Positions 43,135 through 48,057 of a stretch of 48,057 nt of DNA are shown piece after piece. The DNA comes from Candidatus Hodarchaeota archaeon. Lineage in GTDB: Archaea > Asgardarchaeota > Heimdallarchaeia > Hodarchaeales > Hodarchaeaceae. The number at the start of each line of letters is the position of its first letter. Position 1 is the stretch's first letter. The notes beneath the pieces are model-generated. The model was not told where the DNA came from and did not search any database. It saw only the letters and a list, made by a program, of their open reading frames with translations. The stretch lies in NCBI GenBank assembly GCA_016839815.1, contig JAEOTM010000172.1, positions 1 through 48,057 on the forward strand, given 5' to 3'. A program made the translations under genes and the position numbers.

Positions 43135-43530
43135 TTATGATTCAATATCGTTTTTCTGAGCATTAATCTCATGATTAGCAGGTTTGGACAACCGCTGTTT
43201 TAATAGTATAGAATTTGCATAAGCTTCTAGGCTTTTAAAGCGTCTATCCATGGGTTGAGATTCGTCTAGAAAAAATCTAAGACTCATTTGAGAAAATTTT
43301 CCTCCTATTCTCTCAATAATGGTATTCCTTACAGTTTTAGATACACGGATTTTTGGTTGTTCTTGAATAAATACAATAAGGTCAATCCAGTTGTCTACCG
43401 CTTTTGGGCTAATATTGGCCTTGGTTAATTGTGTTTTAGCGAAAGGTTCATCCATATCATTGATTATTTCAAAAATTGCCTGTGCACGTCCAAGCATCGA
43501 ACGTGAAGTTTTGGGTTTACGATTACTCAT
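43135..43530 (-). CDS. Small putative winged-helix DNA-binding protein
   Basis: 'IFEII...FAKTQL...ISPKAVDNWIDLIVFIQEQPKIRV'; ATG at 43530 lies directly beside a palindrome. Confidence 0.6.
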   Translation of the reverse strand: MSNRKPKTSRSMLGRAQAIFEIINDMDEPFAKTQLTKANISPKAVDNWIDLIVFIQEQPKIRVSKTVRNTIIERIGGKFSQMSLRFFLDESQPMDRRFKSLEAYANSILLKQRLSKPANHEINAQKNDIES

Positions 43531-43531
43531 C

Positions 43532-43547
43532 AGTACATTAATGTACT
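43532..43547. promoter_or_regulatory. Perfect 16-bp palindrome AGTACATTAATGTACT (putative operator)
   Basis: Exact inverted repeat in the divergent intergenic region; an extra AGTACAT half-site at 43602-43608. Confidence 0.6.
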
Positions 43548-43631
43548 TTATCTGCATATAAATGTATTCATTTTTATAGGATAAAGTTATTCATTCTAAA
43601 TAGTACATATAATAGTTTTCAAGGGTTAGTT

Positions 43632-45608
43632 ATGTCACAAATAGATCAAATGCTTCAGTACTTCATCATGTTAACCTCACAGGAATTAAAGAAGTCTTTT
43701 GACCATGAGGAAGCAGAAGACATTACAATTGCATTTTCTGAACGGTTTGGGGAACTTTTCGAACAATTAAAGGAAAGATTGGATTTCAACGAAACACAAC
43801 TCTTTCATGGAATTAATCCAATCTTTGTAATAGCATTAGAAGAAGCTCTCCCTGGAAAACAAGGGCAAAAAGACGTAACAATCGTTACCAGACTAGTCCT
43901 TACCATCTACAAAACCATGCTGGAGGAAATGGTTTTATATCCTCAAAGACGAAATTTAGAGACCTCAAAGAACCCATGGGCCACTTTTGTTGAAAATACT
44001 CGTAAAGGAAACACAAAAATCTATGATAATGAATATTTTCAAGTCAAAGAAATCATCTCCACCTCAGAAGAATTTGGCTTTGACCTCAACCGGTGTATTT
44101 ATCAAGAGATCTTCAATGAGTTCGGTAGAGATGATCTAGGCCCTGTTATGTGTGAATATGACTATATACTTGCTGATAATGTCTCAAAATGGGTAGGATT
44201 CAAACGAGAGGAAACAATCCCAACAGGTTCGAACAAGTGTACTTTTAGATTTTTTAATATCAAACCCAGATTCTCCGATAATCCTCTCATTGATAATTTT
44301 CACTTTTTTCTCAATATTATTGATGAGTCTCAAGAAATGTTAAGCAAACAAGAATTGGTAAACAAGGGACTTGACGTTTCTACTGACGTTGATGAAATGA
44401 TCAAACTCTATAGATTTGTAAAAAACCATTCAGGCATTGAAACACTAATGGTAAATAAAGAACTAGCAGTTGGCAATCTAGACAGTTATAAAAAACATGA
44501 AGAATGGATATTACTATTTAACCGTAAAGTTTCCAAAGATATAAGGTCTCAAATCATCAGACATTTACCCCTTAATCTCAGTGAAGAGAAAATCAAACGA
44601 TTAATTACTGACATTCTTGAAAATCCATATGAACTTGACTCTATTAAGTGGATATGCCTCAATTATCTACAACATCACTTTTCATCACGCATCGGATTTG
44701 AAGTTGAAGGGGTTGATCAATTACAGATGAATGTAGGATTATTAGAACAATTTCGTGAGCTTTATCCCGATTATTCATTCGAGGTAAAGGTTTTACAAAA
44801 TTTAAAAGTCTCTGTTCAGATTTTTGGAAAGGGTATACCTGAATATAAATTAAAAGAACCCATTGGGCAAATTCGGAAGAAAATTATAAATAATTACCCA
44901 GATGCAGGTATTTCTTCCATTCAACCAATAATTTCTTCTGATCCTGTAGCCCAGAAATTTTTTGAGGTTTTTAAGGATACTAGCCAATCTTTCCAGCTTC
45001 GTGAGCTTGCACTTAGAATTCTTATTAGTCGAGTAGGTAGTAAACTCATACCATTTTTGGTCTCAGTTGCAGAAAATGATGAAGATGATCAGTTTTTAAG
45101 AGGGAGAGCAATAGATTCTCTTTCATGGTTCACTAGTACATTACCGCAAATATATACTTCTTTTGAGGATTTTGTCCCACTTCCCAATCCTATTAAGCGA
45201 TCAATAATTGATTTTGTCTCACGACAAGGAATAGAACAAGAATTACTTCTTTTTATTTCTAAAGATGAATCGATTGACCCTATTATCCGAATCATTGCTT
45301 TGCGAAACTTACAGACTTATCAAAGTCCACAAGTCACTACATTTTTATTAGAATTTACGAAGGAAAGGTTAAATTCCGAACGTGTCAGACAAGCATCTCT
45401 AGAAGCTCTTTCACATCACGAAGTTGACGAAAAAGGAAAAAATTTGTTATACACCATATTTACTGACCCAAAAGAAACAACCTTCATACGTATGGAAGCT
45501 TTAGAAACTCTCAAAGCTCTAAACTTTCAACCAGAGACAGAAACCACGAAAATTGAAGATTCGGATTGGATTCTTTCGCTTGGGACAAAACAGCTAATGG
45601 AGGAATAA
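43632..45608 (+). CDS. ATC-hydrolase/V4R-like domain, wHTH-like domain and HEAT-like repeats
   Basis: 'FDLNRCIY...LGPVMCEYD...REETIPTGSNKCTFRF' three-Cys pattern; repeats such as 'LRGRAIDSL', 'IRIIALRNL', 'VRQASLEAL', 'IRMEALETL'. Confidence 0.75.
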   Translation: MSQIDQMLQYFIMLTSQELKKSFDHEEAEDITIAFSERFGELFEQLKERLDFNETQLFHGINPIFVIALEEALPGKQGQKDVTIVTRLVLTIYKTMLEEMVLYPQRRNLETSKNPWATFVENTRKGNTKIYDNEYFQVKEIISTSEEFGFDLNRCIYQEIFNEFGRDDLGPVMCEYDYILADNVSKWVGFKREETIPTGSNKCTFRFFNIKPRFSDNPLIDNFHFFLNIIDESQEMLSKQELVNKGLDVSTDVDEMIKLYRFVKNHSGIETLMVNKELAVGNLDSYKKHEEWILLFNRKVSKDIRSQIIRHLPLNLSEEKIKRLITDILENPYELDSIKWICLNYLQHHFSSRIGFEVEGVDQLQMNVGLLEQFRELYPDYSFEVKVLQNLKVSVQIFGKGIPEYKLKEPIGQIRKKIINNYPDAGISSIQPIISSDPVAQKFFEVFKDTSQSFQLRELALRILISRVGSKLIPFLVSVAENDEDDQFLRGRAIDSLSWFTSTLPQIYTSFEDFVPLPNPIKRSIIDFVSRQGIEQELLLFISKDESIDPIIRIIALRNLQTYQSPQVTTFLLEFTKERLNSERVRQASLEALSHHEVDEKGKNLLYTIFTDPKETTFIRMEALETLKALNFQPETETTKIEDSDWILSLGTKQLMEE

Positions 45609-45610
45609 AC

Positions 45611-48057
45611 ATGGATTTTAACGAAGCGTTACATACAATTGAATTATATCTCGAGGAGGAGAGTTCACTCCAAAAAATTACATCACTATCTGATCTTGAT
45701 CAGATAGAAGATCCAATATTTAGTCTTCTTCTTACCCAAAAAGGGAAGTTATCTCATCTACCAGAAAAAACTATCTTTAATAAAGGAATTTCGTTTTTAG
45801 ATGAGGATTGGATCGATTTTAAATCACTGGAGGATGAAAAGAAAAGGATTAAGAAATTGCTTAATGGGGAAAATCTGGAAAAAAGCAAAGATCACCGCTC
45901 CAAAACCCATATCATTAAATCATCTGCTGAACTTCTTAAAAACGTACGAGAAGGAAGATTAAATAAATCAGGTTATTGGGAGCTCTTCAAATGTTATAAG
46001 GAGATAGATCTCGAAGACGATATTCTCGTACTCAAAAAATCTCTTGAATCATCCACAATTGAAGAGATTCTTGTAATGAAAGGGCCAATGAATACTCAAT
46101 CTACTCAAATACCGGAATATATTGAATCAGTGGGGAGTTTTTCTGAAGTTACATATCAGACTATTCCATATACTAACCCTCCAAGACAGGAGCATCTTTT
46201 ATCATATCGTGAATTACAGCAAGTTGAAAAACTCAAATGGAATTTGGATCAGATTAGTAAGTATCTAGGGTCAATTTGGCATGAAAGAACCTCATCTACG
46301 ACAATTTCACGACTAAACTTGCTTTTTGAAAGTGTTGTATTATTAGCAGAGAAAAATTGGCAGTTTAATCAGTCTCTTCATGCTGATAAAAACCAAAAAG
46401 TCATGCTAGGAATACCTAGTAACTTTATCATCGGAATATGTGGAGGATACGCTAGAGGAGAGTTTTCAAGTCATTCAGATTTAGATATGCTTCTTATTCA
46501 TGAAGGAAATGATCAGCAATTCATTCAGGTAGGTGAAACCTTACATCGAATATTCCAATTCGTTCCAAATCTGGAATTATGTAAACTAGAGAACGTTATC
46601 AATCTAAATTTTCATGAAAATGCAATACCTAATATTTTAAAGGCTTTCTTGCAAGGAGAGGAACATTTCTTAGAAGAAAGACAAAGAGTCCAACTTCAAG
46701 AGATGTTAAGCTCAATCGAAGCACTTCGGAAAACTAAAGTCTCTCTAGAAGAACAAAAAGATGGGATTAGAAAGTATTGTTGGTCTGTTTACAAATCGAT
46801 CGTTAATATGGTTCCCATTTATGAAAAACCCATAGGTAAAGGTCAATTTTTACGTGATAAGATTACTGATTCCACCAAAAATGTTCTTCCAGACATTATT
46901 CCAATCCTCGTTCGTGTTACTGAATCACTTAGAAATGAGAATAACTCTCTTGGAGAGAATCTTAGAATTTGTCAACCTTTTCTTTATGATTCAATATTCA
47001 AGACACATTCAGTTATCACAGCATTACAAGATCTGAGTACCATTTTGGCTGTTCTTACAGGAACTACGTTTACTTTTTCAACCATTGACCGATTTCAAAC
47101 AGCTATAAACCGAAATCTCATATCTGAAGAACAGGGTGAGAAACTTATTCAAGGATATGCATGTTTTGCAGAAATGAAATATAATCTGACAAAAAGGATG
47201 CCAATAACAGCTGTCGAGTCACTTAATGATGAATTGAAGGATTTAATCCAAGAGATATATACTCATATTCTACAGAGTTTAGGCCCAAGTGAAAGGATTG
47301 AGAAACCAACCACTGTCGCTTATCCACTCCTAGTTTTTTCTGACCTACACTGGGGATTAAATAATAAAATGGTTAAAGAAGGACTAGCTGAAATCAAAAG
47401 GGTTTGTGAAACACATCAAGTACGGTCAATTGTTATTGCTGGAGATATATTCAATATCGATCGTGTAAGTGAGCTTCTAGAATCAGATAATGAAGGTATT
47501 GCACTTCTTAATGAGCTCTCTAATATCCAAGATACTCTTGGAGATCAACGAATTCATATTATGTCCGGTAATCACGATCCATATTCTTTCTATACCCAAT
47601 TTCGCTTCAAATTAAAACGAAATCTTGATATCCACTTTATTGGAGACAATTACAAAGATCACCATATTTGGATTGAACATGGTGATCAGGACTTTTGGGT
47701 TAATTATACTCCACCCCTTGAAGATTATGTTTCAACATACAGAGCAAAGAAGAATCTATCGTCACAGGCAATTATTGTAGGACACAATCACCGAATCCAT
47801 GAGGAAATTGAGTCAAGATTTTATGCAAACGGCTCAATTGGAAAATATTTTTCTGCTACATTAGTAACAGAGAATTCAGTTGAACTATTAAAGTTACCTA
47901 TACAACATCACATTGATTTAGAGAATATATATGAAAAATATCAAGAAATGACTAATTCAGAAAATTTATTAGATGAATATATTCAGTCTAACTTCAAGCT
48001 GATTGAATGGAATAACTTTTGTTCAGAAATTCAATTTAACAAATCGGAAAAAGAAAC
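45611..48057 (+). CDS. Partial ORF (>815 aa, runs off the window): GlnD/GlnE-type nucleotidyltransferase, helical substrate-binding domain, calcineurin-like metallophosphoesterase
   Basis: Manual translation from ATG 45611 finds no stop. 'GGYARGEFSSHSDLD' at 46442, 'STIDRF...LISEEQGEKLIQGY' near 47080, 'DLH' at 47342, 'AGD', 'GNHD' at 47567, 'EHGD', 'GHNH' at 47780. Confidence 0.85.
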   Translation, partial: MDFNEALHTIELYLEEESSLQKITSLSDLDQIEDPIFSLLLTQKGKLSHLPEKTIFNKGISFLDEDWIDFKSLEDEKKRIKKLLNGENLEKSKDHRSKTHIIKSSAELLKNVREGRLNKSGYWELFKCYKEIDLEDDILVLKKSLESSTIEEILVMKGPMNTQSTQIPEYIESVGSFSEVTYQTIPYTNPPRQEHLLSYRELQQVEKLKWNLDQISKYLGSIWHERTSSTTISRLNLLFESVVLLAEKNWQFNQSLHADKNQKVMLGIPSNFIIGICGGYARGEFSSHSDLDMLLIHEGNDQQFIQVGETLHRIFQFVPNLELCKLENVINLNFHENAIPNILKAFLQGEEHFLEERQRVQLQEMLSSIEALRKTKVSLEEQKDGIRKYCWSVYKSIVNMVPIYEKPIGKGQFLRDKITDSTKNVLPDIIPILVRVTESLRNENNSLGENLRICQPFLYDSIFKTHSVITALQDLSTILAVLTGTTFTFSTIDRFQTAINRNLISEEQGEKLIQGYACFAEMKYNLTKRMPITAVESLNDELKDLIQEIYTHILQSLGPSERIEKPTTVAYPLLVFSDLHWGLNNKMVKEGLAEIKRVCETHQVRSIVIAGDIFNIDRVSELLESDNEGIALLNELSNIQDTLGDQRIHIMSGNHDPYSFYTQFRFKLKRNLDIHFIGDNYKDHHIWIEHGDQDFWVNYTPPLEDYVSTYRAKKNLSSQAIIVGHNHRIHEEIESRFYANGSIGKYFSATLVTENSVELLKLPIQHHIDLENIYEKYQEMTNSENLLDEYIQSNFKLIEWNNFCSEIQFNKSEKE

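What the first reader, a model, noticed from the sequence alone, without database searches (positions are those of the whole stretch)
45611..48057. Hidden ORF: GlnD/GlnE-like nucleotidyltransferase fused to a calcineurin-like phosphoesterase
Seen: missing from the ORF track because it has no stop in the window. It has an intact NTase motif GGYARGEFSSHSDLD, the GlnD/GlnE/DUF294-type helical domain, and all five metallophosphoesterase motifs (DLH, GD, GNHD, H, GHNH). Known: GlnD pairs this NTase with an HD hydrolase and GlnE with a second NTase. Inference: a bifunctional nucleotidylate/de-nucleotidylate (or nucleotide-messenger synthase/hydrolase) enzyme with a different eraser fold. I do not recognise this architecture, and no PII or glnA gene is nearby.
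Basis: partly seen in the sequence, partly recalled or inferred. Interest (0 to 1): 0.8.

Follow-up and report, generated by a model that had tools for sequence, protein, structure and literature searches.

The report
Asgard nucleotidyltransferase–phosphoesterase–CBS fusion enzyme
A real, roughly 933-residue gene of a Hodarchaeales (Asgard) archaeon joins a GlnE/DrrA-like nucleotidyltransferase, an intact LpxH-like metallophosphoesterase and a probable CBS sensor, is always encoded with a HEAT-repeat partner, and is a candidate "writer plus eraser" of protein nucleotidylylation that nobody has studied.

Summary
The frame 45611-48055 (+) is open to the contig end. Contig C106 overlaps the last 127 bases and adds 118 residues, giving about 933 aa. 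The family is confined to Heimdall-group Asgard archaea: 14 of 400 Asgard species genomes, and nothing else among 1.84 billion representative proteins. The fusion is genuine, since it occurs in a closed 4.9-Mb genome and a sister lineage carries a split two-gene form. Structure prediction puts residues 195-560 with GlnE and DrrA adenylyltransferases (Z 17) and with DUF294 proteins. Residues 571-765 are a metallophosphoesterase closest to LpxH (Z 16). The tail resembles a CBS pair. All catalytic residues are invariant in 28 sequences. A HEAT-repeat/ATC-hydrolase-like gene is translationally coupled upstream and is gained and lost together with it (12 of 12 present together, 9 of 9 absent together). 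A complex model places its HEAT repeats beside the transferase cleft (score 0.69, best control 0.00). The genome has no PII gene, so this is not GlnD. The function is inferred, not shown: most likely reversible protein nucleotidylylation. I class it as a new variant of a known kind. This scan noted the same family earlier on other DNA (e1-5444148, e1-5541567, e1-5541575).

The parts
45611..48055 (+). Partial CDS (815 of about 933 codons) of the transferase-phosphoesterase-CBS protein. It continues on contig C106 (L003:3-485).
45600..45604 (+). GGAGG ribosome-binding site inside the last codons of the upstream gene, 6 nt before ATG 45611. This indicates translational coupling.
45611..46180 (+). 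N-terminal alpha/beta domain (residues 1-190), fold not identified. Its predicted strand/helix order resembles two CBS-like units; this was not tested.
46193..46840 (+). Pol-beta-type nucleotidyltransferase core (residues 195-410), GlnE/DrrA/DUF294-like
46442..46486 (+). Catalytic motif GGYARGEFSSHSDLD (G278-D292). D290 and D292 are the metal-binding carboxylates.
46838..47290 (+). Helical HEPN-like substrate-binding domain (residues 410-560), DUF294_C/GlnD_UR_UTase type, with no conserved Rx4-6H motif
47321..47905 (+). Binuclear metallophosphoesterase domain (residues 571-765), closest to LpxH and then to SbcD/Mre11
47957..48055 (+). Start of the probable CBS pair (from residue 783). The rest is on contig C106.
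43632..45608 (+). Obligate partner gene of 658 aa: ATC_hydrolase-like domain, a middle domain, and C-terminal HEAT repeats (438-630)
43135..43557 (-). Conserved divergent small gene (118-140 aa in relatives), related to the middle domain of the partner

Best explanation
Shown: the gene encodes one chain of about 933 aa. It has an unidentified N-terminal domain, a GlnE/DrrA/DUF294-class nucleotidyltransferase with its non-catalytic HEPN-like helical domain, an LpxH-like binuclear metallophosphoesterase, and a probable CBS pair. All catalytic residues are intact. It is encoded in a fixed module with a HEAT-repeat protein. Inferred: the transferase puts an NMP (probably AMP or UMP) on a hydroxyl of a protein. 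That protein is either the co-encoded HEAT/ATC-hydrolase-like protein or a target which the HEAT protein presents. The phosphoesterase hydrolyses that phosphodiester and releases NMP, resetting the switch. The CBS pair senses an adenosine-type ligand and sets the balance between the two activities. The logic is that of GlnD, GlnE or DrrA/SidD, but with a different eraser fold. The confidence given is for this mechanism; the anatomy is about 0.95 certain.
For: Fold of residues 195-568: the model has pLDDT 87.8 and pTM 0.87. It matches GlnE AT-C 3k7d_B at Z 17.3 over 285 residues, DrrA 6yx5_B at Z 16.9 over 282, and GlnE N-domain 1v4a at Z 15.7 over 285. These stand well above aminoglycoside transferases at Z 6-8, and a Foldseek-independent search gave the same order. 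The nearest ESM Atlas clusters are all DUF294+DUF294_C or GlnE/GlnD_UR_UTase. From established knowledge, the biochemically characterised members of this clade (GlnE, GlnD, DrrA) modify protein Tyr or Thr (review PMC12409994; PMC3710099). Phosphoesterase: LpxH 5b49_A matches at Z 16.2 over 175 residues with rmsd 3.4, and Foldseek gives E 6e-7. LpxH cleaves at a nucleotide alpha-phosphate and releases UMP, which is chemistry close to removing NMP from a protein. Catalytic residues are invariant down to 24% identity. A natural split form exists: P0052 and P0050 overlap on at least 6 contigs from different samples. Partner: it lies directly upstream in every locus examined. Both genes are present in the same 12 genomes of the genus, adjacent wherever both were placed, and both are absent from the same 9. 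In the split form the upstream gene is the HEAT part alone. Complex model: ipSAE 0.69 against a best control of 0.00. That mark was reached by 58 of 80 solved complexes and 2 of 110 mismatched pairs. The runs agree in at least 65% of contacts and the partner pLDDT is 83. The interface uses invariant residues on both sides, including E298 and P407-K410 next to the catalytic strands. The CBS reading rests on Pfam hits below cut-off in all 6 tails tested and on 10 of 10 PDB profile hits being CBS proteins.
Against: No substrate, nucleotide or product is known for this family or for any DUF294 protein. The closest structural relatives of the phosphoesterase act on a lipid-nucleotide and on DNA, not on proteins. 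No metallophosphoesterase is listed among the known deAMPylase folds (PMC12409994, PMC12663964). Bacterial DUF294-RNase_T fusions hint at an oligonucleotide-like substrate. The full-length model has pTM 0.58, so the relative placement of the two active sites is unknown. The complex model cannot tell a substrate from a scaffold, and it used my own alignments. The gene is missing from 9 of 21 other genomes of its genus, so it is an accessory function.
Confidence: 0.42

Rival explanations
1. Signal-nucleotide synthase plus degrading phosphodiesterase. The transferase makes a free nucleotide or short oligonucleotide messenger, the phosphoesterase destroys it, and the CBS pair gates the cycle.
For: Pol-beta transferases include oligonucleotide makers. 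HalB matches at Z 6.4 and MntA-type enzymes are weak PADLOC hits. DUF294-RNase_T fusions exist. Metallophosphoesterases include cyclic-nucleotide phosphodiesterases such as Rv0805 (Z 10.3) and GpdQ (Z 11.1).
Against: The fold match to the protein-modifying GlnE/DrrA enzymes (Z 17) is far better than to HalB or MNT-type transferases (Z 6-8). No effector or receptor gene is conserved beside the module, and downstream genes vary. The module does not match known defence systems beyond weak hits to the transferase core.
Confidence: 0.2
2. Small-molecule nucleotidylylation. The transferase activates a metabolite handled by the ATC-hydrolase-like domain of the partner. The LpxH-like domain cleaves the resulting nucleotide-linked compound.
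For: The best match for the phosphoesterase is LpxH, an NDP-sugar pyrophosphatase. The partner carries an enzyme-like ATC_hydrolase domain. A further ATC_hydrolase/DUF6125 gene follows on C106. The L010 locus adds an ATC_hydrolase-EutA fusion and an amidohydrolase. Aminoglycoside transferases share the fold at Z 6-8.
Against: In the split-form lineage the partner has lost the ATC_hydrolase domain and keeps only the HEAT repeats, so the conserved core does not need that domain. LpxH sequence models do not match. The segment between H690 and H725, where I recall the LpxH lipid-binding lid to sit, is short (32 residues).
Confidence: 0.15
3. Nucleic-acid end processing. The transferase adds template-independent tails and the phosphoesterase acts as an Mre11/SbcD-like nuclease or a 2',3'-cyclic phosphodiesterase, as in RNA repair enzymes.
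For: SbcD, Mre11 and MJ0936 are the second tier of structural matches at Z 12-13.7. NCBIfam SbcD gives E 2.4e-7, below its cut-off. From my own knowledge, CCA-adding enzymes and Pnkp combine transferase and phosphoesterase activities.
Against: Pfam and NCBIfam scans showed no nucleic-acid-binding domain. The Mre11 capping domain was not assessed. The transferase fold is not of the CCA, poly(A) or TUTase type: TUTase rows have Foldseek probability 0.11-0.15. No Rad50/SbcC-like or ligase gene is linked.
Confidence: 0.1
4. An orthologue of GlnD or GlnE working in nitrogen control.
For: There are weak local hits to GlnD models around the catalytic motif, E 5.5e-5 to 1e-4. The fold is GlnE-like.
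Against: The genome has no PII gene, while the control search found PII in 13 of 14 reference genomes. The GS genes lie on other contigs. There is no HD or ACT domain and no second transferase module. PF08335 and PF03445 do not match in this genome at E 0.01 or better. The protein occurs in only 14 of 400 Asgard genomes.
Confidence: 0.03

Closest known systems
GlnE (glutamine synthetase adenylyltransferase / adenylyl-removing enzyme)
   Same: It shares the Pol-beta transferase core followed by a HEPN-like helical domain, with Z 15.7-17.3 over about 285 residues. It also puts a writer and an eraser in one chain.
   Different: GlnE's eraser is a second copy of the same transferase fold, whereas here it is a metallophosphoesterase. 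The GlnE and GlnD_UR_UTase sequence models do not match. There is no linkage to GS.
DrrA/SidM AMPylation domain with SidD
   Same: The transferase fold matches at Z 16.9 over 282 residues. In that system a metal-dependent hydrolase encoded next to the writer removes the AMP (PMC12409994).
   Different: SidD has a PPM phosphatase fold and is a separate protein. DrrA is a secreted bacterial effector that acts on host Rab. Here the hydrolase is LpxH-like and fused to the writer, and the organism is an archaeon.
GlnD (PII uridylyltransferase / uridylyl-removing enzyme)
   Same: The catalytic motif is of the GG-x-x-RGE...SDxD type. One chain joins a transferase, a hydrolase and a ligand-sensing domain.
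   Different: GlnD uses an HD hydrolase and ACT sensors and acts on PII. This protein has neither domain, and the genome has no PII gene.
DUF294 / COG2905 sensor nucleotidyltransferases (cNMP-CBS-DUF294-DUF294_C, including RNase_T fusions)
   Same: These are the nearest predicted structures, with TM 0.57-0.61 over about 290 residues. They are also associated with a CBS pair. Some are likewise fused to a hydrolase (RNase_T).
   Different: The DUF294 and DUF294_C models stay below cut-off. The CBS pair is C-terminal, after a metallophosphoesterase that no listed DUF294 cluster carries. DUF294 itself has no known biochemistry.
LpxH (UDP-2,3-diacylglucosamine pyrophosphatase)
   Same: It is the best structural match for residues 571-765: Z 16.2 over 175 residues at 18% identity. 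The motif spelling is similar (DLH.G, GD..N.D, HGD).
   Different: No LpxH sequence model matches. The motif III histidine is kept (GNHD). The segment between H690 and H725, where I recall the LpxH lipid-binding lid to sit, is only 32 residues. Archaea make no lipid A (established knowledge).

Membership tests
Pol-beta nucleotidyltransferase superfamily | hG[GS]-x9-13-D-h-[DE] motif with conserved carboxylates | tested here: met
   G278/G279 ... D290-L-D292 is invariant in 28 sequences. E405 is E or D in all 28 and is a candidate third carboxylate. NTP_transf_2 is hit in 28 of 29 members, best E 4e-6.
GlnE/GlnD/DrrA/DUF294 clade | Transferase core followed by a non-catalytic HEPN-like helical (KNTase_C clan) domain, judged by fold | tested here: met
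   VIA-align gives Z 17.3, 16.9 and 15.7 over 282-285 residues, covering the whole model. The Atlas neighbours are all DUF294 or GlnE. The helical part matches HEPN proteins at Z about 10.7 and has no conserved Rx4-6H motif.
GlnE/GlnD/DUF294 clade | Match to Pfam DUF294, DUF294_C or GlnD_UR_UTase above the curated cut-off | tested here: not met
   PF03445 and PF08335 find nothing in this genome at E 0.01 or better. DUF294_C gives E 0.043 here and hits 10 of 29 members (best 0.008). DUF294 hits 2 of 29 members (best 8.5e-4).
GlnD | HD hydrolase domain, ACT domains and a PII substrate | tested here: not met
   No HD or ACT hit. No PII gene in the 89.5%-complete genome.
GlnE | Two tandem transferase modules, with GS as substrate | tested here: not met
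   There is one transferase motif and one module in the model. The GS genes are unlinked.
Metallophosphoesterase (calcineurin-like) superfamily | Five motifs: DxH, GD, GNH[DE], H, GHxH | tested here: met
   D578, H580, D612, N654, H655, D656, H690 and H725 are invariant, and H727 is conserved in 27 of 28. Metallophos_2 scores 27.8 bits against a cut-off of 27 and hits 26 of 29 members.
LpxH family | Match to an LpxH sequence model, and a lipid-binding lid | tested here: not met
   NCBIfam at E 0.01 or better lists SbcD, acc_ester and PdeM but no LpxH model. The H690-H725 segment, where I recall the lid to sit, is about 32 residues. Only the fold is close (Z 16.2).
PPP protein phosphatases (PP2A-like, with HEAT scaffold) | GDxHG / GDxVDRG / GNHE signature | tested here: not met
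   The sequence reads SDLHWG / GDIFNIDR / GNHD. Calcineurin chains score Z 9.6-10.0 against 16.2 for LpxH.
CBS pair (Bateman module) | Two CBS motifs matching PF00571 | tested here: inconclusive
   CBS hits appear in all 6 tails tested but stay below cut-off (E 0.0004-0.05), with two stretches in P0048. The tail profile hits only CBS proteins in the PDB, E 0.0018-0.02 for the best seven. ST2348 aligns over profile positions 10-126.
HEPN ribonucleases | Rx4-6H catalytic motif | tested here: not met
   No conserved Rx4-6H in residues 410-565 across 28 sequences.

The most novel reading that the evidence does not exclude
Some Hodarchaeales carry a self-contained reversible protein-nucleotidylylation switch in which a metallophosphoesterase is the eraser. 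That fold is not among the known deAMPylases (FIC, GlnE-type ATase, PPM/SidD, RNase Z). The HEAT-repeat partner would be its substrate or its substrate adaptor.
Probability: 0.3. Interest if true: 0.75.

Novelty: new variant of a known kind. Interest (0 to 1): 0.58.

Why it matters
Protein AMPylation and UMPylation have few known writers and even fewer erasers. A fused GlnE/DrrA-type writer with an LpxH-like metallophosphoesterase would add a new eraser fold. It would also give the large, unstudied DUF294-type sensor transferases a workable model, because the partner and possible substrate is encoded next door. The host lineage, Hodarchaeales, is the archaeal group currently placed closest to eukaryotes, so its regulatory enzymes draw attention. 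The family is narrow, however: one GTDB genus plus one split form. It has no detectable eukaryotic relatives, so it says nothing direct about eukaryogenesis.

Tried and rejected
- **Assembly artefact:** rejected. The same fusion is present in 12 genomes of the genus, including a closed 4.9-Mb genome.
- **Sequence searches:** a profile search against PDB sequences gave nothing significant for the whole protein or for the N-terminal domain.
- **ESM Atlas feature searches:** these gave no usable hit for the whole protein or for residues 1-195.
- **N-terminal domain:** it stays unidentified. hhalign against the CBS tail found nothing (probability 0.07%).
- **Known defence systems:** PADLOC gave only weak hits to the transferase core.
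- **Literature:** searches found no paper on this architecture. The DUF294 hits in the fitness-screen preprint are word-start matches to DUF2946.
- **Sequencing runs:** The C151-C106 join therefore rests on the 127-base overlap and on homology, not on reads.
- **TTG 45566 as start:** judged less likely than ATG 45611, because of the GGAGG site and the upstream stop.
Full report
**1. The observation**

The frame from ATG 45611 runs without a stop to base 48055, which is 815 codons. The window is the whole of contig C151 of a 4.24-Mb, 206-contig, 89.5%-complete genome.

Only one other contig, C106, shares sequence with the 3' end. Its first 127 bases are identical to the last 127 of the window, and the frame continues for 118 more residues to a stop. 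That tail aligns without gaps at 71% identity to residues 792-948 of the homologue P0002. The complete protein therefore has about 933 residues.

The upstream gene stops at 45606-45608. GGAGG sits at 45600-45604. This favours ATG 45611 over the TTG at 45566 and points to translational coupling.

**2. Family and distribution**

A word-indexed search found 46 clusters. They are 49-65% identical and 915-960 aa when complete. Nearly all named members are Hodarchaeales or Heimdallarchaeota, and they carry only generic automatic names.

A profile search of 1.84 billion representative proteins found 15 hits with E below 0.001. At least 13 of them are the family itself or fragments of it.

Among 400 Asgard species genomes, 14 carry the gene. 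These are the window's genome, 12 of 21 others in its GTDB genus, and one genome of another family in the class. Nine genomes of the genus lack it, including ones that are 94-99% complete. It is single-copy in this genome.

**3. The fusion is real**

The fusion occurs in a closed 4.9-Mb chromosome.

In the other family the same protein is split. P0052 (533 aa) holds the N-terminal domain plus the transferase. P0050 (376 aa) holds the phosphoesterase plus the CBS part. The two genes overlap, and this arrangement appears on at least six contigs from different samples.

**4. Domains**

*Sequence models.* Pfam sees Metallophos_2 just above its cut-off. NTP_transf_2, DUF294_C and CBS fall below theirs. 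Across 29 members the counts are NTP_transf_2 in 28, Metallophos_2 in 26, DUF294_C in 10, CBS in 7 and DUF294 in 2. The DUF294 and GlnD_UR_UTase models find nothing in this genome at E 0.01 or better.

*Transferase.* A model of residues 195-568 has pLDDT 87.8 and pTM 0.87. Its matches are:

| Chain | Protein | Z | Aligned residues |
|---|---|---|---|
| 3k7d_B | GlnE AT-C domain | 17.3 | 285 |
| 6yx5_B | DrrA | 16.9 | 282 |
| 1v4a | GlnE N-domain | 15.7 | 285 |

- HEPN proteins match only the helical half, at Z about 10.7.
- Aminoglycoside transferases match at Z 6-8.
- A search that does not rely on Foldseek gave the same order.
- The nearest ESM Atlas clusters are all DUF294/DUF294_C or GlnE/GlnD_UR_UTase.
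- This agrees with the published grouping of GlnD, GlnE, DUF294_C and DrrA as transferases with a non-catalytic HEPN domain (PMC3710099).
- No Rx4-6H motif is conserved in the helical half.

*Phosphoesterase.* Residues 571-765 match LpxH best: Z 16.2 over 175 residues with rmsd 3.4, and Foldseek E 6e-7. SbcD, Mre11 and MJ0936 follow at about Z 13.7.

*C-terminal tail.* The tail profile hits only CBS proteins in the PDB. Every tail tested gives a CBS match below cut-off, and one gives two stretches.

*N-terminal domain.* Residues 1-190 remain unidentified.

*Catalytic residues.* All catalytic residues of both enzymes are invariant in 28 sequences, down to 24% identity. The one exception is H727, conserved in 27 of 28.

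**5. The partner**

- **Position.** The gene directly upstream encodes a 658-aa protein with an ATC_hydrolase-like domain and HEAT repeats. A homologue lies in the same place in every relative examined.
- **Diversity.** Its family has the same size and divergence as the enzyme family and appears to lie on the same contigs, judging by matching contig lengths.
- **Co-occurrence.** In the genus, both genes are present in the same 12 genomes, adjacent wherever both were placed. Both are absent from the same 9. One further genome keeps only a tail fragment of the enzyme gene, with two in-frame stops, and has no partner.
- **Conserved core.** In the split-form lineage the upstream gene is a 288-aa protein that matches only the HEAT part (E 2e-10). 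The HEAT repeats are therefore the conserved core of the partner.
- **Complex model.** A model of enzyme residues 1-800 with HEAT residues 438-630 scored ipSAE 0.69 in three runs (0.69, 0.71, 0.68), against a best control of 0.00. That mark was reached by 58 of 80 solved complexes and 2 of 110 mismatched pairs. The runs agree in at least 65% of contacts, and the partner pLDDT is 83.
- **Interface.** On the enzyme it uses Y199, R200, I222, E225, E298 and P407-K410. On the partner it uses F488, R523, Q587, E615, F618 and E622. All of these are conserved. This supports binding near the transferase cleft. It does not show binding, and it cannot tell a substrate from a scaffold.
- **Small divergent gene.** A small divergent gene is also conserved.

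**6. Mechanism**

The anatomy is shown; the chemistry is inferred.

The characterised enzymes with this transferase fold modify protein hydroxyls. LpxH attacks a nucleotide alpha-phosphate. On those grounds the most likely reading is reversible nucleotidylylation of a protein, with the phosphoesterase as eraser and the CBS pair as ligand gate.

The known deAMPylase folds are FIC, the GlnE-type transferase, PPM (SidD) and RNase Z (PMC12409994, PMC12663964). A metallophosphoesterase would be a new one.

The rivals are:
- a free messenger synthase/hydrolase;
- a small-molecule pathway tied to the ATC-hydrolase-like domain;
- nucleic-acid end processing.

A GlnD or GlnE role in nitrogen control is nearly excluded. 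There is no PII gene, GS is unlinked, and there is no HD, ACT or second transferase module.

**7. Novelty**

I found no described family or paper with this architecture. I class it as a new variant of a known kind, namely sensor-gated GlnD/GlnE/DUF294-type transferases paired with a hydrolase.

This scan noted the same family before on other genomes. A follow-up there (e1-5444148) reached the same main reading. My tests were run independently and agree with it. They add the split form, the co-gain and co-loss counts, the LpxH match and the complex model.

Noticed in passing
window 43135-43557 (-): The conserved small divergent protein aligns by profile with residues 217-310 of the neighbouring 658-aa partner (hhalign probability 84.5%, E 7e-6, 93 columns). 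This gives moderate support to another first-reader note that it is a free-standing copy of the partner's middle domain. It has no Pfam family.
   Followed up: partly
L007:7144-10722 (also L008, L009): A Heimdall-group lineage carries a three-gene split form with overlapping genes: a HEAT-only protein (288 aa), the N-terminal domain plus transferase (533 aa), and the phosphoesterase plus CBS part (376 aa).
   Followed up: yes
G067:C127:2970-3467: One genome of the genus keeps only a tail fragment of the enzyme gene, with two in-frame TAA stops, and has no partner gene. It is probably a decayed copy.
   Followed up: no
L003:563-1069 (contig C106): Just downstream of the completed gene lies a 168-aa ATC_hydrolase/DUF6125 protein. 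It is a second member of the partner's N-terminal domain family. It is not found at this position in the four relatives examined.
   Followed up: partly
L010:2943-6233: In the most divergent fused member's locus, an ATC_hydrolase-EutA/Ppx-GppA fusion (768 aa) and an Amidohydro_2 gene sit between the small divergent gene and the partner.
   Followed up: no
window 45611-46180: In the full-length model the strand/helix order of the N-terminal domain reads like two beta-alpha-beta-beta-alpha units. That would fit a degenerate CBS pair, as in canonical DUF294 proteins. No sequence support was found.
   Followed up: partly
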